A stretch of DNA of 64,000 bases from Escherichia coli (GTDB lineage Bacteria > Pseudomonadota > Gammaproteobacteria > Enterobacterales > Enterobacteriaceae): assembly GCF_024700885.2 (NCBI RefSeq), contig NZ_CP117016.1, one strand, 5' to 3'. The notes under the pieces are model-generated. The model was not told where the DNA came from and did no database searches. It worked only from the letters and a program-made list of their open reading frames with translations. Position numbers and translations under genes: made by a program. Shown here in pieces: positions 9,518 through 54,767 of the stretch. The number at the start of each line of letters is the position of its first letter. The first letter of the stretch is position 1.

Positions 9518-10540
9518 ATGTCTACGATGAATGTTTTAATTTGCCAGCAGCCGAAAGAATTAGTCTGGAAACAACGCGAGATACCTATTCCGGGTGACAA
9601 TGAAGCATTAATAAAAATTAAGTCAGTCGGCATTTGTGGTACCGATATTCATGCCTGGGGTGGGAATCAACCATTTTTTAGTTATCCACGCGTTTTAGGC
9701 CATGAAATATGTGGGGAGATTGTTGGGCTGGGTAAAAATATTGCAAATCTTAAAAATGGACAGCAAGTAGCGGTGATCCCTTATGTTGCCTGTCAGCAAT
9801 GCCCGGCGTGTAAAAGCGGGCGTACCAATTGCTGTGAAAAAATTTCAGTCATTGGCGTGCATCAGGATGGCGGTTTTAGTGAGTATTTGAGCGTGCCGGT
9901 GGCGAACATTTTGCCCGCAGATGGTATTGACCCGCAGGCGGCAGCATTAATTGAACCTTTCGCTATTAGCGCTCATGCGGTGCGTCGCGCAGCCATTGCT
10001 CCCGGCGAGCAGGTGCTGGTGGTCGGGGCGGGGCCAATCGGTCTGGGCGCGGCGGCAATCGCTAAAGCCGATGGCGCACAGGTGGTGGTGGCGGATACCA
10101 GTCCGGCGCGCCGTGAACATGTGGCAACGCGTCTGGAATTACCTGTACTGGACCCGTCAGCCGAAGATTTTGACGCGCAGCTGCGGGCGCAGTTTGGTGG
10201 TTCGCTGGCGCAGAAAGTGATCGACGCGACAGGTAATCAACATGCGATGAATAACACCGTGAATCTGATTCGTCACGGCGGCACGGTGGTATTTGTCGGT
10301 CTGTTTAAAGGTGAGTTGCAGTTCTCCGATCCGGAATTCCATAAAAAAGAAACGACGATGATGGGTAGCCGCAACGCCACGCCGGAAGATTTCGCTAAAG
10401 TCGGTCGACTGATGGCGGAAGGGAAAATCACTGCCGACATGATGTTAACCCATCGCTATCCGTTCGCCACGCTGGCAGAAACCTACGAGCGCGATGTGAT
10501 TAACAATCGTGAGTTGATTAAGGGTGTAATTACTTTCTGA
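9518..10540 (+). CDS. lgoD: L-galactonate 5-dehydrogenase (Zn-dependent alcohol dehydrogenase family)
   Basis: ATG at 9518 (MSTMNVLICQQ...) gives 340 aa; GHE...GxVxxVG Zn-ADH motifs and Rossmann GAGPIG. Confidence 0.85.
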   Translation: MSTMNVLICQQPKELVWKQREIPIPGDNEALIKIKSVGICGTDIHAWGGNQPFFSYPRVLGHEICGEIVGLGKNIANLKNGQQVAVIPYVACQQCPACKSGRTNCCEKISVIGVHQDGGFSEYLSVPVANILPADGIDPQAAALIEPFAISAHAVRRAAIAPGEQVLVVGAGPIGLGAAAIAKADGAQVVVADTSPARREHVATRLELPVLDPSAEDFDAQLRAQFGGSLAQKVIDATGNQHAMNNTVNLIRHGGTVVFVGLFKGELQFSDPEFHKKETTMMGSRNATPEDFAKVGRLMAEGKITADMMLTHRYPFATLAETYERDVINNRELIKGVITF

Positions 10541-45044: not shown

Positions 45045-46552
45045 TGGCAATTCTTGATGATGTGATTGGCGTTTTTTCACCAGGATGGAAAGCGGCAAGG
45101 CTGCGTTCCCGTGCGGTGATCCAGGCTTATGAGGCCGTAAAAACGACGCGGACACACAAAGCCCGGCGGGAAAACCGAACTGCCGACCAGTTAAGCCAGT
45201 ACGGGGCCGTGTCGTTACGTGAGCAGGCCCGTTACCTTGATAACAACCACGATCTGGTTATTGGTGTATTTGACAAGCTGGAAGAACGGGTGGTGGGGAA
45301 AAACGGGATTATTGTCGAGCCACATCCGGTATTACGCAATGGGGCCATTGCCCGTGATCTGGCAGCGGAGATTCGCACCCGATGGAGTGAATGGTCTGTC
45401 AGCCCGGAAGTCACCGGGCAGTTTACCCGTCCGATGCTGGAACGTCTGATGCTGCGTACCTGGCTGCGCGATGGTGAGGTGTTTGCCCAGATGGTTTCCG
45501 GGCGCATAAACAGCCTGACGCCTTCTGCCGATGTTCATTTCTGGCTGGAGGCGCTCGAGCCAGACTTTATTCCCATGACCAGTGATGAGAGCAACAGGCT
45601 GAATCAGGGCGTGTTTGTTGATGACTGGGGGCGTCCCGAAAAATATCTGGTGTATAAAAGCCGTCCCGTATCCGGACGGCAGATGGAAACCAAAGAAGTG
45701 GATGCAGAGCGAATGCTGCATCTTAAATTTGTTCGCCGTCTGCACCAGATGCGCGGGACGTCTTTGTTGTCCGGTGTGCTGATCCGCCTCAGTGCCCTGA
45801 AAGAGTATGAAGATTCTGAGCTGACTGCAGCAAGGATCGCCGCTGCTCTGGGGATGTACATCCGGAAAGGCGACGGGCAGAGCTATGAACCGGATGGTAA
45901 TGGCAGCAAGGATAAGGAACGCGAGCTTACCATTCAGCCAGGCATTATTTACGACGATCTGAAACCCGGCGAAGAAATTGGAATGGTGAAGTCGGATCGC
46001 CCCAATCCTAATCTTGAAACTTTTCGTAATGGTCAGTTGCGTGCCGTGGCGGCGGGCAGTCGTCTGAGTTTTTCCAGTACGGCACGCAACTATAACGGCA
46101 CTTACAGCGCCCAGCGTCAGGAACTGGTTGAGTCTACTGATGGCTACCTGATCCTGCAGGACTGGTTTATTGGTGCCGTCACCCGCCCGATGTATCGTGC
46201 ATGGCTGAAACAGGCTGTGGCATCCGGTGTTATCAGGCTACCCCGTGATCTTGACCGTTCTTCACTGTATACCGCGGTGTATTCCGGACCAGTGATGCCG
46301 TGGATTGACCCTGTTAAGGAGGCTGAGGCCTGGAAAATCCAGATTCGTGGTGGAGCGGCGACAGAATCAGACTGGGTACGTGCTGGTGGTCGTAATCCGG
46401 ATGATGTCAAACGTCGGCGCAAGGCCGAAATTGATGAAAACCGCAAGCTGGATCTGGTATTTGATACCGATCCGGCCAGTGATAAAGGAGGCAGCAGTGC
46501 CGCAACGAAACGACAGGAGCCGCAGCACACCGACGACCAGTCCGAAGAATAA
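45044..46552 (+). CDS. portal protein
   Basis: ATG at 45044 overlapping the W stop (TGATG) gives 502 aa; position between terminase/W and the prohead protease. Confidence 0.8.
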   Translation: MAILDDVIGVFSPGWKAARLRSRAVIQAYEAVKTTRTHKARRENRTADQLSQYGAVSLREQARYLDNNHDLVIGVFDKLEERVVGKNGIIVEPHPVLRNGAIARDLAAEIRTRWSEWSVSPEVTGQFTRPMLERLMLRTWLRDGEVFAQMVSGRINSLTPSADVHFWLEALEPDFIPMTSDESNRLNQGVFVDDWGRPEKYLVYKSRPVSGRQMETKEVDAERMLHLKFVRRLHQMRGTSLLSGVLIRLSALKEYEDSELTAARIAAALGMYIRKGDGQSYEPDGNGSKDKERELTIQPGIIYDDLKPGEEIGMVKSDRPNPNLETFRNGQLRAVAAGSRLSFSSTARNYNGTYSAQRQELVESTDGYLILQDWFIGAVTRPMYRAWLKQAVASGVIRLPRDLDRSSLYTAVYSGPVMPWIDPVKEAEAWKIQIRGGAATESDWVRAGGRNPDDVKRRRKAEIDENRKLDLVFDTDPASDKGGSSAATKRQEPQHTDDQSEE

Positions 46553-46565
46553 TTCCTGGTTCAGG

Positions 46566-48524
46566 ATGCAGGCTGGTCACCAGAGTGACGCGGATATTTA
46601 TATTTATGACGAGATTGGTTTCTGGGGGGTTACAGCGAAGCAGTTTATCAGTGATCTGAATGCACTGGGCGATATCACCCACATTAATCTCCATATCAAT
46701 TCACCGGGTGGCGATGTCTTTGAAGGCATCGCCATTTTTAATGCGCTGAAAACACATGGTGCGTCCATTACCGTTTATGTCGACGGTGTGGCGGCGTCAA
46801 TGGCGTCGGTCATTGCGATGGTGGGAAACCCGGTCATTATGCCGGAAAACACCTTCATGATGATTCATAAACCATTTGGCTTTACGGGCGGTGATGCGGA
46901 GGACATGCGCACCTATGCCGACCTGCTCGATAAGGTTGAGGCGGTTCTGTTACCCGCTTATGCACAGAAAACCGGGAAAACCACCGATGAAATTGCTGCC
47001 ATGCTGGCGGATGAGACCTGGATGTCCGGAGCCGAATGTCTGGCTCATGGATTTGCTGATCAGGTAACGCCAGCCGTTAAGGCAATGGCATGTATTCAGT
47101 CAAAACGTACAGAGGAATTTAAAAAGATGCCGGAATCCATTCGAAACATGATTACTCCGCCACGCAACAGTGCTCCACGCGTACCGGATGATGAACCAGC
47201 AGCACCCCGGACGCCAGTGCAGGCAGCAGCACCAGTGGTGGATGAAAACAGTATCCGTGCGCAGGTACTGGCAGAGCAAAAAGCGCGTGTAAACGGTATT
47301 AATGATCTGTTTGCCATGTTTGGCGGACGTTATCAGGCGCTGCAGGCTCAGTGCCTTGCCGATCCTGAGTGTTCGCTGGAGCAGGCCCGCGAGAAGCTGT
47401 TGAACGAGATGGGGCGCGAGTCCACGCCATCCAATAAAAATACCCCGGCTCATATTTATGCCGGTAACGGTAATTTTGTGGGGGACGGGATCCGCCAGGC
47501 GCTGATGGCGCGTGCCGGATTTGAAAAAACCGAACGTGATAATGTCTACAACGGGATGACTCTGCGTGAATATGCCCGTATGTCACTGACTGAACGGGGT
47601 ATTGGGGTTTCCAGTTATAACCCGATGCAGATGGTCGGTGCGGCGTTCACACACAGTACGTCTGACTTCGGTAATATTCTGCTGGATGTTGCGAACAAAG
47701 CCATTCTGCAGGGCTGGGAAGATGCCCCTGAAACCTATGAACAGTGGACGCGGAAAGGTCAGTTGTCTGATTTTAAAATTGCCCATCGAGTGGGTATGGG
47801 GGGCTTCAGTGCTCTGCGTCAGGTGCGTGAAGGGGCGGAATATAAATACGTCACCACCGGAGATAAACAGGCCACTATTGCACTGGCGACCTATGGCGAG
47901 CTGTTCAGTATCACCCGTCAGGCCATTATCAATGATGATTTGAATATGCTGACCGATGTCCCGATGAAACTGGGCCGTGCGGCGAAATCCACTATTGCCG
48001 ATCTGGTTTATGCCATTCTGACGTCTAACCCGAAAATCTCCACAGATAATGTAAGTCTGTTCGATAAAGCGAAACATGCAAACGTACTGGAGAGCGCTGC
48101 AATGGACGTGGCATCGCTGGATAAAGCCCGCCAGTTGATGCGCGTTCAGAAAGAGGGGGAGCGTCATCTGAATATTCGTCCTGCGTTCGTACTGGTACCG
48201 ACGGCGATGGAGTCTGTTGCTAACCAGGTCATTCGCTCCTCAAGTGTCAAGGGGGCTGACATTAACGCCGGTATTATTAACCCGGTGAAAGATTTTGCGA
48301 CCGTTATTGCAGAGCCTCGTCTTGATGATAACAGCCAGACCACCTTCTACCTGGCTGCGTCAAAAGGCTCCGATACGATTGAAGTGGCTTATCTCAACGG
48401 TGTGGATACGCCATATATTGATCAGATGGAGGGCTTCAGTGTGGATGGCGTGACAACGAAAGTGCGTATTGACGCCGGTGTCGCGCCAGTTGATCACCGC
48501 GGTCTGGTGAAATGTACGGCGTAA
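46566..48524 (+). CDS. prohead protease (ClpP/S49-like) fused to major capsid protein
   Basis: N-terminal ~200 aa has the ClpP-family fold signature (INSPGGDVFEGIAIF...VAASMASVIAM...MIHKP); C-terminal ~350 aa is capsid-like. Start assigned to the first ATG after the portal stop; weak RBS. Confidence 0.75.
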   Translation: MQAGHQSDADIYIYDEIGFWGVTAKQFISDLNALGDITHINLHINSPGGDVFEGIAIFNALKTHGASITVYVDGVAASMASVIAMVGNPVIMPENTFMMIHKPFGFTGGDAEDMRTYADLLDKVEAVLLPAYAQKTGKTTDEIAAMLADETWMSGAECLAHGFADQVTPAVKAMACIQSKRTEEFKKMPESIRNMITPPRNSAPRVPDDEPAAPRTPVQAAAPVVDENSIRAQVLAEQKARVNGINDLFAMFGGRYQALQAQCLADPECSLEQAREKLLNEMGRESTPSNKNTPAHIYAGNGNFVGDGIRQALMARAGFEKTERDNVYNGMTLREYARMSLTERGIGVSSYNPMQMVGAAFTHSTSDFGNILLDVANKAILQGWEDAPETYEQWTRKGQLSDFKIAHRVGMGGFSALRQVREGAEYKYVTTGDKQATIALATYGELFSITRQAIINDDLNMLTDVPMKLGRAAKSTIADLVYAILTSNPKISTDNVSLFDKAKHANVLESAAMDVASLDKARQLMRVQKEGERHLNIRPAFVLVPTAMESVANQVIRSSSVKGADINAGIINPVKDFATVIAEPRLDDNSQTTFYLAASKGSDTIEVAYLNGVDTPYIDQMEGFSVDGVTTKVRIDAGVAPVDHRGLVKCTA

Positions 48525-50195: not shown

Positions 50196-50945
50196 GTGGC
50201 AATGACCACACCAAATCCACTGGCAAAAACGAAAGGTGCGGGAACGACGTTCTGGATGTACACCGGCAAGGGCGATGCGTTTGCGAACCCTTTATCGGAC
50301 ACTGACTGGCTGCGTCTTGCGATGGTGAAGGATCTGCAACCTGGCGAAATGACCGCTGATGCAGAAGATGACACTTATCTCGATGATGAAGATGCAGACT
50401 GGAAAACGACAACCCAGGGGCAGAAATCCGTCGGTGATACTTCGGCGACGCTGGCCTGGCGTCCGGGTGACAGCGGACAGAAAAAACTGGTTCAGTTGTT
50501 CGACTCCGGTGAAGTCTGCGCGTTTCGTATCAAATATCCCAACGGCACTGTTGATGTTTTCCGTGGCTGGCTGAGCTCACTGGGTAAAACCATTGCCTCA
50601 AAAGACGTGATGACCCGCACCGTGAAAATCAGCGGTGTGGGGCGTCCGTATCTGGCAGAGGAAGGCACTGAAACAGTGAGCGTTACCGGGCTGACGGTGG
50701 CACCGGCATCTGCCAGTGTAAAAGTGGGAGCAACCACCACGCTGACCTTTACAGTAAAACCTGACGGAGCCAGTGACAAAGCGATCAGTGTGCATTCGAC
50801 AGATCCACAGACTGCCACGGTGACCCTGAACGGGCTTGTGGCCACGGTGAAAGGCGTGAAGCAGGGCAGTGTCAGCATTGTGGGCATGACTTCTGACGGC
50901 GATTTTGTGGCAGTGGCTGCGGTGGCTGTCAGCGCCGCAGGTTAA
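50196..50945 (+). CDS. major tail protein (lambda V-like) with C-terminal Ig-like domain
   Basis: 249-aa ORF; C-terminal ~90 aa is a Big_2-type Ig-like repeat (VSVTGLTVAPASASVKVGATTTLTFTVKPDGASDKAISVHSTDPQTATV...). Confidence 0.8.
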   Translation: MAMTTPNPLAKTKGAGTTFWMYTGKGDAFANPLSDTDWLRLAMVKDLQPGEMTADAEDDTYLDDEDADWKTTTQGQKSVGDTSATLAWRPGDSGQKKLVQLFDSGEVCAFRIKYPNGTVDVFRGWLSSLGKTIASKDVMTRTVKISGVGRPYLAEEGTETVSVTGLTVAPASASVKVGATTTLTFTVKPDGASDKAISVHSTDPQTATVTLNGLVATVKGVKQGSVSIVGMTSDGDFVAVAAVAVSAAG

Positions 50946-50965: not shown

Positions 50966-50989
50966 GCCCCGGTTATCCGGGGCTTTTTT
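50966..50989 (+). terminator. rho-independent terminator after the major tail gene
   Basis: gccccgg-ttat-ccggggc hairpin followed by T6. Confidence 0.6.
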
Positions 50990-51002: not shown

Positions 51003-51392
51003 ATGATGTTTCTGAAACAGGGCACGTTTAATTATGAAAAGCAGTCCGTGGTGCTCAGTGAGCTGTCCGGGCTGCAGAGAATTGAATATCTGGCGTTTGT
51101 TCAGCAGCGAACGGCAAAGTTTGATGCCGAAGAGGGAGAACTGCCGGAGGCTGAACGACAGATTGCTTTTCTGCGGATGGGGATGGATATCAATGCCTGG
51201 CTGGTTTCCCGCTCACTGTGGAATGCGGAACAGTCTCAGGATGTTGAGACGCTTTGCGCATCCGTTATTACAACATGGTCGTATGATGCCCTGGGAGCGG
51301 GGGCGGAGATGGTTCTGTCGCTGAGCGGTATGGGAGCCATTGAGAATGCCGGGGATTTGGAGCATGAGGTGCTGACGCCGGAAAAGTCCTGA
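51003..51392 (+). CDS. tail assembly chaperone (lambda G-like)
   Basis: 129-aa ORF from ATGATG at 51003 (GGTGGAGA RBS), immediately upstream of the tape-measure gene. Confidence 0.7.
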   Translation: MMFLKQGTFNYEKQSVVLSELSGLQRIEYLAFVQQRTAKFDAEEGELPEAERQIAFLRMGMDINAWLVSRSLWNAEQSQDVETLCASVITTWSYDALGAGAEMVLSLSGMGAIENAGDLEHEVLTPEKS

Positions 51393-51730
51393 CGCGGGAA
51401 ATGCAGTTTGTCATGCGGCTTGCCCGGGAGTTCCGGCGGGCAGACTGGCGGCGGATGCTGTCGGAAATGTCGGCCACTGAGCTTGGTGAGTGGGGCGATT
51501 ATTTCCGGATGCAGAGCTTCAGTGATGTGTGGATGGATGCGCAGTTTGCCTCGCTGAAGGCATTGATCGTGAGAATGGTGTCCGGTAGCAGTGATGCTGC
51601 GGTGGCTGATTTCAGCCTTTTACCGGAAGAGAACGGGATACCGGAGCGAACGGACGAAGAACTGATGCATCTTGGGGAAGGTATTTCCGGAGGTGTGCGT
51701 TATGGACCAGATAGCCAACCTGGTCATTGA
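51003..51730 (+). CDS. predicted G-T fusion product made by programmed -1 ribosomal frameshift
   Basis: The -1 frame is open from before the G stop through 51730; heptamer G-GAA-AAG at 51380-51386 lies 4 nt before the G stop, the lambda GGGAAAG position. Confidence 0.5.
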
Positions 51731-54700
51731 TTTGGGGATTGATGCGGCAGAGTTTAAAAATGAAATTCCCCGTATCAAAAACCTTCTGAATGGTGCAGCC
51801 AGCGATGCAGAACGGTCTTCTGCCCGTATGCAGCGTTTTATGGAGCGTCAGACTCAGGCCGCCCGGCAGACAATGCAGGCGGCTTCTTCGGCTGCAACAG
51901 CCGCATCCGTCCATGCGCAGACGGTGGAGAAGAGCGCACAGGCTCATGAACGCATGGCCCGCGAGGTGGAGCAAACCCGCCAGCGTATGGAGGCACTGAG
52001 CCAGAAAATGCGCGAGGAACAGGCGCAGGCCATGGCTCTGGCGGAGGCTCAGGATAAAGCGGCTGCCGCGTTTTATCGTCAGATTGACAGTGTGAAACAG
52101 GCCAGTGCGGGGCTGCAGGAATTACAGCGTATTCAGCAGCAGATCCGACAGGCCAGAAACAGTGGCGGGATTGGTCAGCAGGATTATCTGGCGCTGATTT
52201 CTGAGGTTACGGCGAAAACCCGTGTTCTTACGCAGGCTGAGGCAGAGGCTACCCGACAGAAAGTGGCGTTTATCCGTCAGCTTAAAGAGCAGGCAACCCG
52301 CCAGAATCTTTCTTCTTCTGAGTTGCTTCGTGCTAAGGCTGCCCAGCTGGGGGTAAGCAGTGCTGCAGAAGTGTATATCCGCAAAATGGAGCAGGCAGGA
52401 AAAGCCACACATTCGCTGGGTCTGAAAAGTGCAGCGGCCCGCCAGGAGATAGGCGTTCTGATAGGTGAACTGGCTCGCGGCAATTTAGGTGCGCTGAGGG
52501 GATCCGGGATAACGCTGGCTAACCGTGCCGGATGGATAGACACACTGATGTCACCGAAAGGCATGATGCTGGGCGGGGTTATTGGCGGTATTGCCGCGGC
52601 CGTCTATGGTCTGGGTAAAGCCTGGTATGATGGTCAGAAGGAGGGGGAAGAATTTAACCGCCAGTTGTCGCTGACGGGGCATTATGCCGGAGTCACTGCC
52701 GGGCAGCTGTGGACGCTCAGTCGTGCTATTTCCGGGAATGGTATTACGCAACATGCTGCAGCCGGTGCGCTGGCTCAGGTGGTGGGGAGTGGTGCATTTC
52801 GTGGAAACGATATCGGTATGGTGGCGAGAGCTGCCGCACAGATGGAGCGATCGGTTGGCCAGTCGGTCAGCGATACCATAAATCAGTTTAAGCGGCTGAA
52901 GGATGATCCTGTAAATGCCGCGAAGGCTCTGGACAATGAGCTGCATTTTCTTACTGCCACTCAGCTTGAGCAGATACGCGTCCTTGGGGAACAGGGGCGG
53001 TCCAGTGATGCGGCACGGATAGCCATGTCTGCACTGGCAGAGGAAACCGGTCGGCGTACTGCGGATATTGATAATAACCTCAATGCGCTGGGCAGTACGC
53101 TGAAGTATCTGTCTGATTTATGGAGTCGTTTCTGGGATGCGGCCATGAATATTGGTCGTGAAGACTCGCTGGATGAACAGATTGCCGCTTTACAGGAGAA
53201 AGTGTCGCGGGCGAAAAGACTCCCCTGGACGGCATCATCTTCTCAGGTTGAATACGATCAGCAGCGTCTTAACGATCTTCAGGAGAAAAAACGCCAGAAG
53301 GATTTGCAGGATGCAAAAGAGCAGGCAGAGCGGAATTATCAGGAGCAACAGAAACGCCGTAATGCTGAAAATGCTGCACTGAACCGGATGAATGAAACGG
53401 AAGCAGCACGACATCAGCGTGAAATTGCGCGTATTAATGCCATGCAGTACGCCGATCAGGCTGTCAGGGATGCGGCGATACAACGTGAAAATGAACGTTA
53501 CGAGAAAGCCCTGGCATCCGGTAAGAAAAAAACACGCGAACCCCGTAATGATGAGGCCACCCGGTTATTGCTGCAGTACAGTCAGCAACAGGCACAGGTG
53601 GAAGGACAGATTGCTGCTGCCAGACAGTCAGCAGGCATTGCCACGGAAAGGATGACAGAAGCGCATAAACAGCTTCTGGCTCTGCAGCAGCGCATCAGCG
53701 ACCTGGACGGGAAAAAACTGACGGCAGATGAAAAGAGTGTGCTGGCCCGTAAAGATGAACTGATTCAGGCACTGACGCTGCTGGATGTAAAACAGCAGGA
53801 GCTTCAGAAACAGACGGCACTCAACGAGCTGAAGAAAAAAACAATTCAGCTGACCAGTCAACTGGCTGAAGAAGAGCGCGCTCAGCGTCAGCAACATGAC
53901 CTGGATATCGCCACGGTGGGTATGGGTGATCAGCAGCGGCAGCGATATCAGGTACAACTGAGTCTTCGCCAGAAATACCAGCAACAGCTGGAGCAGTTGA
54001 GGCGGGATAGTGAGCAGAAAGGAACATATAACACGGATGACTACAGAAAGGCCGAGCAGGCGCTGACGGAGAGCCTGAACCGACAACTGAATGAGAATCG
54101 CCGTTACTGGCAACAGCTTGAAGTTGTGCAGGGTAACTGGAAAAACGGAGTCCTGCGTGCATTTCAGGATTTTACCGTGGATGCAGATAATACGGCAGGA
54201 ACAGCAGAACAGGTGTTCTCGTCAGCCTTCAGCAACATGGGAAATGGCCTGGCAACTTTTGTCACTACCGGCAAACTCAATTTCAAATCCTTCACCTCTT
54301 CTGTGCTGTCAGATATGGCGAAAATCCTGGCGCAGGCAACCATGATGAAATCGATAAAAGGGATTGGCAGTGTACTGGGATTTGATCTCAGCAGCCTTTC
54401 CCTGAATGCCAATGGGGGGATTTATCAGTCTGCTGATTTGAGTCGTTACAGTGGCACGGTGGTTAACCGTCCGACGTTTTTTGCTTTTGCAAAAGGCGCG
54501 GGTGTGATGGGGGAAGCTGGACCTGAAGCCATTCTGCCACTGCGTCGTGATGCTGACGGTAAGCTGGGGGTTGTGGCGGATATTGGTGGTTCAGGTATGG
54601 CGATGTTTGCCCCGCAGTACAACATAGAGATCAATAACGATGGCACGAACGGGCAGATAGGTCCGGCTGCCCTGAAGGTGGTTTATGACCTCGGGAAAAA

Positions 54701-54767
54701 AGCAGCAGCGGACTTTATGCAACAGCAGGCCCGTGATGGTGGTCGGTTAAGTGGAGCATATCGGTAA
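51702..54767 (+). CDS. tail tape-measure protein (lambda H-like)
   Basis: ~1021-aa ORF from ATG 51702 (GGAGGT RBS); long coiled-coil-rich central region and Gly-rich hydrophobic segment. Confidence 0.9.
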   Translation: MDQIANLVIDLGIDAAEFKNEIPRIKNLLNGAASDAERSSARMQRFMERQTQAARQTMQAASSAATAASVHAQTVEKSAQAHERMAREVEQTRQRMEALSQKMREEQAQAMALAEAQDKAAAAFYRQIDSVKQASAGLQELQRIQQQIRQARNSGGIGQQDYLALISEVTAKTRVLTQAEAEATRQKVAFIRQLKEQATRQNLSSSELLRAKAAQLGVSSAAEVYIRKMEQAGKATHSLGLKSAAARQEIGVLIGELARGNLGALRGSGITLANRAGWIDTLMSPKGMMLGGVIGGIAAAVYGLGKAWYDGQKEGEEFNRQLSLTGHYAGVTAGQLWTLSRAISGNGITQHAAAGALAQVVGSGAFRGNDIGMVARAAAQMERSVGQSVSDTINQFKRLKDDPVNAAKALDNELHFLTATQLEQIRVLGEQGRSSDAARIAMSALAEETGRRTADIDNNLNALGSTLKYLSDLWSRFWDAAMNIGREDSLDEQIAALQEKVSRAKRLPWTASSSQVEYDQQRLNDLQEKKRQKDLQDAKEQAERNYQEQQKRRNAENAALNRMNETEAARHQREIARINAMQYADQAVRDAAIQRENERYEKALASGKKKTREPRNDEATRLLLQYSQQQAQVEGQIAAARQSAGIATERMTEAHKQLLALQQRISDLDGKKLTADEKSVLARKDELIQALTLLDVKQQELQKQTALNELKKKTIQLTSQLAEEERAQRQQHDLDIATVGMGDQQRQRYQVQLSLRQKYQQQLEQLRRDSEQKGTYNTDDYRKAEQALTESLNRQLNENRRYWQQLEVVQGNWKNGVLRAFQDFTVDADNTAGTAEQVFSSAFSNMGNGLATFVTTGKLNFKSFTSSVLSDMAKILAQATMMKSIKGIGSVLGFDLSSLSLNANGGIYQSADLSRYSGTVVNRPTFFAFAKGAGVMGEAGPEAILPLRRDADGKLGVVADIGGSGMAMFAPQYNIEINNDGTNGQIGPAALKVVYDLGKKAAADFMQQQARDGGRLSGAYR

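What the first reader, a model, noticed from the sequence alone, without database searches (positions are those of the whole stretch)
51375..51410. G-T programmed -1 frameshift site with a variant heptamer GGAAAAG
The -1 frame is open across the end of G into the 109-codon T ORF. The heptamer at 51380-51386 is GGAAAAG rather than the lambda GGGAAAG, so the P-site codon GAA would re-pair on GGA. It is located 4 nt before the G stop, as in lambda.
Basis: partly seen in the sequence, partly recalled or inferred. Interest (0 to 1): 0.3.

Follow-up and report, generated by a model that had tools for sequence, protein, structure and literature searches.

The report
Phage tail chaperone G-T frameshift site
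This is the known ribosomal slip site that lets a lambda-like prophage of E. coli make a small amount of a fused G-T tail-assembly protein; its GGAAAAG sequence differs from lambda's textbook GGGAAAG but is the commonest form in this protein family and was already annotated in phage N15, so the finding is correct but ordinary.

Summary
GGAAAAG lies at 51380-51386, read as G_GAA_AAG in the G frame. G ends at TGA 51390-51392. The -1 frame is open from 51368 to 51730, and the 109-codon ATG ORF covers 51401-51730. The overlap is only 25 nt and contains no other slippery candidate.

G and T match Pfam's lambda G and T families and sit in a Z-U-V-G-T-H-M-L-K tail module 99.9% identical to phage Ayreon. 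The module occurs in 1847 of 5426 complete E. coli genomes.

In 244 related loci, G_GAA_AAG is the majority slip site (151 loci; 21 of 32 T clusters), while lambda's G_GGA_AAG fills 2 clusters. The three slip-site codons show no synonymous change, whereas the flanks vary. T-frame homology starts right after the slip. The ATG used by annotators lies downstream of an invariant Glu and is present in only 9 of 74 lineages.

The N15 GenBank record already labels GGAAAAG as the slippery sequence, and a 2016 review lists G_GA as a known near-canonical P-site variant.

"As in lambda" is wrong for spacing: 3 nt to the stop here, 15 nt in lambda. I found no conserved stimulator.

The open point is efficiency: in reconstituted E. 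coli translation this heptamer yields mainly zero-frame product. Interest is low.

The parts
51003..51392 (+). Gene G, the tail assembly chaperone. It has tandem ATG codons at 51003 and 51006, and PGAP uses 51006. The stop is TGA at 51390-51392.
   Evidence: Pfam Phage_TAC_2 with E = 1.8e-39. The exact 128-aa protein is named 'phage tail assembly chaperone G' and is seen on at least 1000 contigs.
51380..51386 (+). Slip site G_GAA_AAG. In the zero frame Glu (GAA) occupies the P site and Lys (AAG) the A site. After a -1 slip the codons read GGA AAA.
   Evidence: The same heptamer sits at the aligned position in 151 of 244 related loci. Synonymous identity is 1.00 at all three codons. The identical heptamer is annotated as the slippery sequence in N15.
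51365..51367 (+). TGA in the -1 frame. It sets the upstream limit of where a productive shift can occur.
   Evidence: the -1 frame is open only from 51368 onward, giving a 25-nt overlap with G.
51386..51730 (+). T segment, read in the -1 frame after the slip. The first codon is GTC at 51386-51388 and the stop is TGA at 51728-51730. The predicted fusion has 241 or 242 aa depending on which of the two ATG codons starts G; its junction reads ...LTPEK-VLTREMQFVMRLAREF...
   Evidence: Pfam Phage_tail_T with E = 3.9e-15. It aligns with lambda T from the first residue after the slip. Glu +5 and Phe +8 are invariant in 74 distinct N-termini.
51401..51403 (+). ATG used by PGAP and most phage records as an independent start for T. 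It is probably not the real way T is made.
   Evidence: It lies at position +6 after the slip, downstream of the invariant Glu +5. It is present in only 9 of 74 distinct T N-termini. In most lineages the first ATG is at +24, inside the conserved core.
51366..51371 (+). GAGGTG, a Shine-Dalgarno-like hexamer 8 nt upstream of the heptamer. It is a possible stimulator but is not supported as a selected element.
   Evidence: Anti-SD duplex energy of -9.3 kcal/mol, roughly in the top 2% of 8-mers in G genes. Against synonymous recodings p = 0.22. It is lost in the close relative mEp460 (GAGGCG), and no lineage reached p < 0.05.
50196..50945 (+). Gene V, the major tail tube protein, immediately upstream of G.
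   Evidence: Pfam Phage_TTP_12 with E = 6.4e-67, plus a Big_2 domain.
51702..54767 (+). Gene H, the tape measure protein, immediately downstream. Its start overlaps the end of T by 29 nt.
   Evidence: Pfam TMP_2 with E = 2.7e-49 and Tape_meas_lam_C with E = 3.2e-22. The PGAP start is shown.

Best explanation
This is the programmed -1 ribosomal frameshift site of a lambda-type G/GT tail assembly chaperone pair.

Most ribosomes translate G (51003/51006 to 51392) and stop at the TGA. A small fraction slip back one nucleotide while GAA (Glu) and AAG (Lys) are being decoded. tRNA-Lys re-pairs perfectly from AAG to AAA. tRNA-Glu re-pairs from GAA to GGA, with a G:U pair at the middle position. Translation then continues from GTC at 51386 in the T frame to 51730, producing a G-T fusion of about 241 aa.

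By analogy with lambda, G and the G part of GT coat the tape measure protein H, and the T part recruits the tail tube protein V.

What is shown here: the anatomy, the family membership, and the nucleotide-level conservation of the site. What is inferred: that the fusion is actually produced, how efficiently, and which tRNA movements are involved. The site needs no RNA stimulator that I could detect. Its efficiency is probably lower than lambda's few percent.
For: - Both ORFs belong to the lambda G and T families and lie between V and H in a Z-U-V-G-T-H-M-L-K module.
- The -1 frame overlaps G by only 25 nt, with a single slippery candidate.
- The slip-site Lys is an invariant column in the GT alignment, and lambda's proven G_GGA_AAG aligns to the same position.
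- In 244 loci the aligned site is always an A_AAR Lys codon. G_GAA_AAG accounts for 151 of them, spread over 21 of 32 T clusters at 90% identity.
- The three slip-site codons have synonymous identity of 1.00 in 25 and 56 distinct sequences of two clades, while flanking codons range from 0.3 to 0.9.
- Heptamer position 1 co-varies with the P-site codon. It is G in 100 of 103 contexts where that codon starts with G, across Ala, Pro, Leu and Val codons, and A in 3 of 3 contexts with AAA. GAA is used 72 times and GAG never. This argues that the P-site tRNA really does re-pair.
- T-frame residues directly after the slip are conserved (Glu +5 and Phe +8 invariant), and no start codon is conserved.
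- The N15 record annotates GGAAAAG as 'slippery sequence for -1 translational frameshift'. The Gifsy-1 record annotates its T as made by translational frameshifting, and it has the same CCG GAA AAG TCC TGA junction.
- Atkins et al. 2016 list G_GA as a recognised near-canonical P-site variant (PMC5009743).
Against: - There is no experimental evidence for the fusion in this phage group or, as far as I could find, in any G_GAA_AAG phage.
- In a reconstituted E. coli system, G GAA AAG served as the 'less slippery' control and gave mainly zero-frame product with wild-type EF-G (PMC6924986).
- A_AAG alone, without a stimulator, is barely above background in vivo: about 0.15% against 0.11% (PMC4066793).
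- No conserved stimulator was found.
- A few relatives have P-site codons that cannot re-pair (G_GCA_AAA, A_GAA_AAG), so P-site re-pairing is not indispensable in the family.
- Public annotation (PGAP, mEp460, Tritos) treats T as a separate gene.
Confidence: 0.85

Rival explanations
1. The shift is real but only tRNA-Lys slips, on A_AAG (the hexanucleotide NNA_AAG mechanism seen in B. subtilis cdd and IS1222). On this view tRNA-Glu does not re-pair, and the upstream G is irrelevant or acts only through context.
For: A_AAR is the only feature invariant across all 244 loci. Relatives with G_GCA_AAA or A_GAA_AAG cannot re-pair the P-site tRNA, yet keep an intact T frame. [quoted passage not shown] Atkins et al. 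describe productive use of G_CGA_AAG in IS1222.
Against: Heptamer position 1 is G in 100 of 103 contexts with a G-starting P codon, across four different preceding amino acids, and switches to A when the P codon is AAA. The preceding codon shows synonymous identity of 1.00. A pure single-tRNA slip would not constrain that base. All the variants that cannot re-pair have the stop codon directly 3' of the Lys codon, which suggests they need a different aid.
Confidence: 0.25
2. T is made as an independent 109-aa protein from ATG 51401, as PGAP and most phage records annotate it, and no frameshift is needed.
For: An ATG ORF of 109 codons exists. PGAP, mEp460, Tritos and cdtI annotate it as a separate CDS. 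The exact 109-aa protein is in the databases while the fusion is not.
Against: The ATG is present in only 9 of 74 distinct T N-termini. In most lineages the first ATG is at +24, beyond the invariant AREFGRPDWR core. Glu +5, upstream of the window's ATG, is invariant in the T frame. Homology to lambda T begins at the first codon after the slip. In lambda, T is known only as part of GT (PMC5009743). I also saw no SD at a normal distance: the sequence is GCGGGAAATG, leaving only two A's between GGG and the ATG (my reading of the sequence).
Confidence: 0.06
3. The frame change happens at the RNA level: RNA polymerase slips on the A run, giving mRNAs with one extra or one fewer A.
For: The site contains a short homopolymer (AAAA), and transcriptional slippage is used in some bacterial and phage genes (PMC5009743, general discussion).
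Against: Four A's is far below the run lengths that I recall supporting productive slippage (about 7 or more; this figure is from my own knowledge, not tested here). Lambda's proven site has only three A's. The conserved features, a G-ending Lys codon, an A-ending Glu codon and G at position 1, match tRNA re-pairing rules rather than a homopolymer-length requirement.
Confidence: 0.01
4. The frameshift is stimulated in the dnaX manner, by the upstream SD-like GAGGTG (51366-51371) pairing with 16S rRNA, which would compensate for the weaker heptamer.
For: GAGGTG is a perfect 6-nt match to the anti-SD at 8 nt from the heptamer (-9.3 kcal/mol). The 'stop at +3' GGAAAAG class shows stronger anti-SD pairing at 4-14 nt than background (mean -6.3 against -3.9 kcal/mol). 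Two clusters carry AAGGAGGTG. Sharma et al. searched for SD-like stimulators at 6-17 nt.
Against: With the protein sequence held fixed, the observed pairing is not unusual: p = 0.22 for the window, and no lineage below 0.05. The region simply encodes Glu-Val and Gly-Asp. mEp460 and most of the clade have the weaker GAGGCG. The phi80/N15 clade has essentially no pairing.
Confidence: 0.15

Closest known systems
Phage lambda G/GT frameshift (Levin, Hendrix and Casjens 1993; Xu, Hendrix and Duda 2004, 2013, 2014, as cited in PMC5009743)
   Same: Homologous G and T (about 34% identity over the fusion). Same gene order V-G-T-H. The slip is at the aligned Lys codon. Same A-site move, AAG to AAA. No detectable RNA stimulator.
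   Different: The P-site codon is GAA rather than GGA, so re-pairing needs a G:U pair at the middle position. The stop is 3 nt after the heptamer instead of 15 nt. T is shorter: 114 aa after the slip against 144, lacking lambda's duplicated C-terminal GGVRY repeat.
Phage N15 genes 14/15 (and phi80, mEp043, other Ravinvirus-like phages)
   Same: Identical heptamer G_GAA_AAG at the aligned position, annotated in NC_001901 as 'slippery sequence for -1 translational frameshift'. Same protein families.
   Different: N15 has lambda-like spacing of 15 nt to the stop, and GCG rather than CCG as the preceding codon. The G and T proteins are only about 38% identical to the window's.
Salmonella phage Gifsy-1 STM2596/STM2595
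   Same: Closest G outside the Ayreon/mEp460/cdtI group (55% identity). Identical junction CCG GAA AAG TCC TGA. The record states that T is made 'by translational frameshifting'.
   Different: Different host and diverged flanks. The record names no heptamer.
Hexanucleotide NNA_AAG sites: B. subtilis cdd (A_CGA_AAG) and IS1222 (G_CGA_AAG)
   Same: They rely on the shift-prone tRNA-Lys at A_AAG, with a 5' codon that is not of the XXY type. These are low-level -1 shifts in bacteria (PMC5009743).
   Different: In those sites the 5' tRNA cannot re-pair at all. Here G_GAA offers two Watson-Crick pairs plus a G:U, and position 1 appears to be under selection.
G_GA-type near-canonical heptamers of RNA viruses, and the mycobacteriophage site GGGGGAA
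   Same: The same kind of departure from X_XXY. G_GA is listed as a recurring intermediate between hexanucleotide and heptanucleotide motifs (PMC5009743). In GGGGGAA the tRNA reading GAA re-pairs on GGA through a G:U pair, and PRFect's 'twofour' XXYYYY motif describes GGAAAA (PMC10885494).
   Different: Different hosts and ribosomes, and different A-site codons. The RNA-virus sites usually have strong downstream structures, which are absent here.

Membership tests
Lambda-type G/GT tail assembly chaperone frameshift | Two consecutive ORFs between the major tail gene and the tape measure gene | tested here: met
   V 50196-50945, G 51003-51392, T frame 51368-51730, H 51702-54767.
Lambda-type G/GT tail assembly chaperone frameshift | Upstream ORF homologous to lambda G and downstream ORF homologous to lambda T | tested here: met
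   PF06894 with E = 1.8e-39 and PF06223 with E = 3.9e-15. The fusion aligns end to end with lambda GT.
Lambda-type G/GT tail assembly chaperone frameshift | Downstream ORF in the -1 frame, overlapping the end of G, with no conserved start codon of its own | tested here: met
   25-nt overlap. An ATG within +1 to +8 occurs in only 9 of 74 distinct N-termini, and conservation begins at +1.
Lambda-type G/GT tail assembly chaperone frameshift | A slippery sequence inside the overlap, conserved at the nucleotide level | tested here: met
   G_GAA_AAG is the only candidate. Synonymous identity is 1.00 at its three codons. It is present in 151 of 244 loci.
Lambda-type G/GT tail assembly chaperone frameshift | A G-T fusion protein is produced at a low fixed ratio and is required for tail assembly | not testable with these tools
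   This needs a western blot, mass spectrometry or genetics. No experimental report was found for a G_GAA_AAG phage.
Canonical X_XXY_YYZ simultaneous-slippage heptamer | YYY identical, so the A-site tRNA re-pairs cognately in the -1 frame | tested here: met
   A_AAG: AAG moves to AAA, read by the single E. coli tRNA-Lys (sequence; rule from PMC4066793 and PMC5009743).
Canonical X_XXY_YYZ simultaneous-slippage heptamer | XXX identical, so the P-site tRNA keeps its first two pairs in the -1 frame | tested here: not met
   The sequence is G_GAA: the -1 codon GGA differs from GAA at the middle position. Peng et al. call this a second-position mismatch.
dnaX-type stimulated -1 frameshift | Upstream SD-like sequence at about 6-17 nt that is conserved | tested here: inconclusive
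   GAGGTG is present 8 nt upstream. It is not beyond expectation given the protein (p = 0.22) and is not conserved in relatives.
dnaX-type stimulated -1 frameshift | Downstream stem-loop or pseudoknot 5-9 nt after the heptamer | tested here: not met
   Folding z-scores of -1.09 (90 nt) and +0.38 (50 nt). There is no downstream zone of synonymous constraint.
Hexanucleotide NNA_AAG single-tRNA slippage (cdd / IS1222 type) | A_AAG with a 5' codon whose tRNA cannot re-pair; efficiency set only by the wobble behaviour of that tRNA | tested here: inconclusive
   A_AAG is present. However, position 1 is conserved as G and co-varies with the P codon, which points to some P-site re-pairing. Deciding between the two needs an assay.

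The most novel reading that the evidence does not exclude
G_GAA_AAG is treated in ribosome biochemistry as a poorly slippery control, yet it is the predominant and strictly conserved slip site of the lambda-type G/T family. If these phages still reach a lambda-like G:GT ratio, some unrecognised stimulator must act at this site. Candidates are the acidic nascent G tail, the mRNA context, or the nearby stop codon. If they do not reach that ratio, then tail assembly in most of the family runs on a much lower GT dose than the 30:1 thought to be critical in lambda. The stop-adjacent variants (G_GCA_AAA_TAG, A_GAA_AAG_TAA) would then be a second solution, in which slow termination substitutes for P-site re-pairing.
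Probability: 0.25. Interest if true: 0.45.

Novelty: already known. Interest (0 to 1): 0.15.

Why it matters
For this window it matters little. It is a correct identification of a well-known recoding event in a very common E. coli prophage module.

Two practical points follow. First, automatic annotation (PGAP and most phage submissions) records T as a stand-alone 109-aa protein starting at a non-conserved ATG, and no source I queried holds the fused GT protein. The real product of a module present in a third of complete E. coli genomes is therefore missing from protein databases. Second, the family-wide census shows that lambda's canonical heptamer is the exception. This gives a natural, well-replicated test set for how much P-site mismatch a bacterial -1 site can tolerate, namely G_GGA, G_GAA, A_AAA, G_GCA and A_GAA, each followed by a Lys codon (AAG or AAA).

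Tried and rejected
- Upstream SD-like stimulator. GAGGTG at 51366-51371 looked promising: -9.3 kcal/mol, with class-level enrichment. The signal disappears when the protein sequence is held fixed and codons are resampled. It is also not conserved in mEp460-type relatives.
- Downstream hairpin or pseudoknot. Folding energies are no better than shuffles, and there is no block of synonymous constraint downstream.
- Independent initiation of T at ATG 51401. Rejected on conservation grounds.
- Other slip sites in the overlap. There are none. The only other partial match, AAAGTCC, is an XXX-only pattern that abuts the stop.
- +1 frame. It is open only from 51376 to 51480 and encodes nothing recognisable.
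- Transcriptional slippage. The A run is too short (four A's).
- Literature search for GGAAAAG or G GAA AAG as a phage slip site in the open-access library. Nothing was found on phages. One hit in an S. thermophilus phage paper was an unrelated RBS string. Xu et al. 2004 (Mol Cell), the paper most likely to tabulate it, is not held.
- Exact-match look-up of the fused GT protein. It is absent from the collection.

Full report
**What is in the sequence.** Positions 51380-51386 are GGAAAAG. In the frame of the upstream gene the text reads ACG CCG GAA AAG TCC TGA, so the heptamer is G_GAA_AAG and the stop is at 51390-51392. The -1 frame has a TGA at 51365-51367 and then stays open to a TGA at 51728-51730. 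The two frames overlap by only 25 nt. Among the in-frame heptamers in that stretch, G_GAA_AAG is the only one that lets an A-site tRNA re-pair. The string itself is common (13 copies in the window, 9.8 expected), so its meaning comes entirely from where it sits and how it is conserved.

**What the genes are.** The upstream ORF matches Pfam's lambda G family (Phage_TAC_2, E = 1.8e-39). The downstream ORF matches lambda T (Phage_tail_T, E = 3.9e-15). They are flanked by a lambda-type tail tube gene V and a tape measure gene H, within a complete Z-U-V-G-T-H-M-L-K module. The 801 nt around the site are 99.9% identical to phage Ayreon and about 98% identical to mEp460 and cdtI. They occur in 1847 of 5426 complete E. 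coli genomes. None of the records I inspected for this group joins G and T. PGAP, mEp460 and Tritos list T as a separate CDS from the ATG at 51401, and Ayreon calls it 'GpGT-like'.

**Comparison of junctions.** I extracted the junction from lambda and eleven other phage records, then from 240 further loci obtained with three scans of the viral contig collection seeded on different clades (scripts). In an alignment of predicted GT fusions the slip-site Lys is an invariant column, and lambda's experimentally established G_GGA_AAG falls at exactly that position. The 244 usable loci break down as follows:

| Heptamer | Loci | nt between heptamer and G stop |
|---|---|---|
| G_GAA_AAG | 151 | 3 in 104 loci, 15 in 46, 0 in 1 |
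| G_GGA_AAG | 76 | 15 |
| G_GCA_AAA | 10 | 0 |
| A_AAA_AAG | 3 | 15 |
| A_GAA_AAG | 3 | 0 |
| G_GAA_AAA | 1 | 0 |

Counted by T-protein clusters at 90% identity, G_GAA_AAG occupies 21 of 32 clusters and lambda's heptamer only 2. The sample is seeded rather than random, but it is clear that the 'variant' is the usual form in this family.

**Evidence that the site is under selection as a nucleotide sequence.** In two separate G_GAA_AAG clades (25 and 56 distinct sequences), pairs of sequences that share the amino acid also share the codon 100% of the time at the three slip-site codons (NNG, GAA, AAG). Neighbouring codons score 0.3-0.9. Across 106 distinct contexts, Glu is GAA 72 times and GAG never, against a background of 59% GAA in the same genes. 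The base before the P-site codon is G in 100 of 103 cases where that codon starts with G, although the preceding amino acid varies (Ala, Pro, Leu, Val). That base is A in all three cases where the P-site codon is AAA. This co-variation is what re-pairing of the P-site tRNA predicts. It is the main reason I favour a two-tRNA shift with a G:U pair (GAA to GGA) over a slip of tRNA-Lys alone.

**Evidence that T is not made on its own.** T-frame residues directly after the slip are conserved. In 74 distinct N-termini, Glu at +5, Phe at +8, Ala +13, Glu +15 and the RxDWR motif are invariant. The window's ATG is at +6, downstream of the invariant Glu, and an ATG within +1 to +8 exists in only 9 of the 74. 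In most lineages the first ATG in the T frame is at +24, inside the conserved core. An independent start therefore cannot be the family's way of making T.

**Search for stimulators.** The window carries GAGGTG 8 nt upstream of the heptamer, a perfect 6-nt match to the anti-Shine-Dalgarno sequence (-9.3 kcal/mol). The 'stop at +3' class as a whole shows more such pairing than background. This stretch encodes Glu/Asp-rich peptide, however. When the protein is held fixed and codons are resampled, the observed pairing is unremarkable (p = 0.22 for the window; no lineage below 0.05). Close relatives have the weaker GAGGCG, and the phi80/N15 clade has almost none. Downstream folding is no better than shuffled sequence (z = -1.09 and +0.38), and synonymous conservation falls to background within a few codons after the slip. 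I conclude there is no conserved RNA stimulator, as has been reported for lambda. That last point about lambda is from my own knowledge of Levin et al. 1993 and was not checked here.

**What is already known.**
- The N15 RefSeq record carries a feature 'slippery sequence for -1 translational frameshift' at 10027-10033, and that sequence is GGAAAAG.
- The Gifsy-1 record describes its T as made 'by translational frameshifting', and its junction is identical to the window's.
- Atkins et al. 2016 describe motifs intermediate between the NNA_AAG hexanucleotide and the X_XXY_YYZ heptamer, and name G_GA as a recurrent P-site variant (PMC5009743).
- The PRFect paper lists an XXYYYY motif and points out that the mycobacteriophage site GGGGGAA requires GAA-to-GGA re-pairing through a G:U pair (PMC10885494).

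So both the phenomenon and this particular heptamer are already on record. I could not find it discussed as a phage slip site in the open-access literature that is held, and the paper most likely to tabulate it is not held.

**What remains open.** Peng et al. 2019 used exactly G GAA AAG as the 'less slippery' comparison to G GGA AAG in a reconstituted E. coli system, and obtained mainly zero-frame product with wild-type EF-G (PMC6924986). Sharma et al. 2014 found A_AAG alone barely above background without a stimulator (about 0.15% against 0.11%), and heptamers without a stimulator at most about ten-fold above a 0.055% background (PMC4066793). The efficiency of this natural site is therefore unknown and may be well below lambda's. 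The variants whose P-site tRNA cannot re-pair all have the stop codon immediately after the Lys codon. That hints at slow termination compensating for the missing re-pairing, but the lineages are few and related, so this is only a lead.

**Verdict.** The feature is a member of a well-known system, with a heptamer that was already annotated in N15. Interest is low. The modest residual interest lies in the contrast between the heptamer's dominance in nature and its poor performance in vitro, and in the systematic mis-annotation of T as an independent gene: the fused protein is absent from a 15-billion-sequence collection, while G and T separately are each seen on at least 1000 contigs.

Noticed in passing
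window 50966-50989: A terminator-like hairpin, GCCCCGGTTATCCGGGGC followed by six T's, sits between the major tail gene V and gene G. The same position is annotated as a terminator in Ayreon, mEp460 and N15, so it looks like a conserved feature. It might lower expression of G, T and H relative to V.
   Followed up: partly
window 46305-48524 (Pfam scan on 46398-48521): A single long ORF combines a ClpP-type protease domain (E = 3.1e-36) with a phage major capsid domain (Phage_capsid_4, E = 2.3e-54). This is a protease-capsid fusion in one reading frame.
   Followed up: no
L069, L070, L074, L077, L078, L090 (CTG GCA AAA TAG); L081, L082, L084 (GCA GAA AAG TAA); L071 (CTG GAA AAA TAG): In relatives whose P-site codon cannot re-pair in the -1 frame, the G stop codon lies directly after the Lys codon. 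Canonical heptamers always have 15 nt before the stop. This may be compensation by slow termination, but there are few independent lineages.
   Followed up: partly
phi80/N15-clade loci, e.g. L093-L107 and L170, the 26 nt upstream of the heptamer: This clade has much less anti-Shine-Dalgarno complementarity upstream of GGAAAAG than synonymous recodings of the same peptide (p >= 0.97 in about 15 contexts). It could be avoidance or just shared ancestry. It is unexplained.
   Followed up: no
L032 (IMGVR_UViG_2551306526_000001): The T reading frame stays open for 517 codons instead of about 120, as if T were fused in frame to the tape measure gene. It could also be a sequencing error.
   Followed up: no
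window 51401-51730, and RefSeq record NZ_CP033762.1 (L253 1652-1981): PGAP and most phage submissions annotate T as an independent 109-aa protein from a non-conserved ATG. The predicted GT fusion is absent from a 15-billion-protein collection, although the module is in 1847 of 5426 complete E. coli genomes.
   Followed up: yes
window 51702-51730: The start of the tape measure gene H overlaps the end of the T frame by 29 nt. The same arrangement is annotated in Ayreon, mEp460, Gifsy-1 and N15.
   Followed up: no
window 51375-51400 (predicted protein junction ...LTPEK-VLTR-EMQ...): Trypsin would cut exactly at the frameshift junction and again four residues later.
   Followed up: yes
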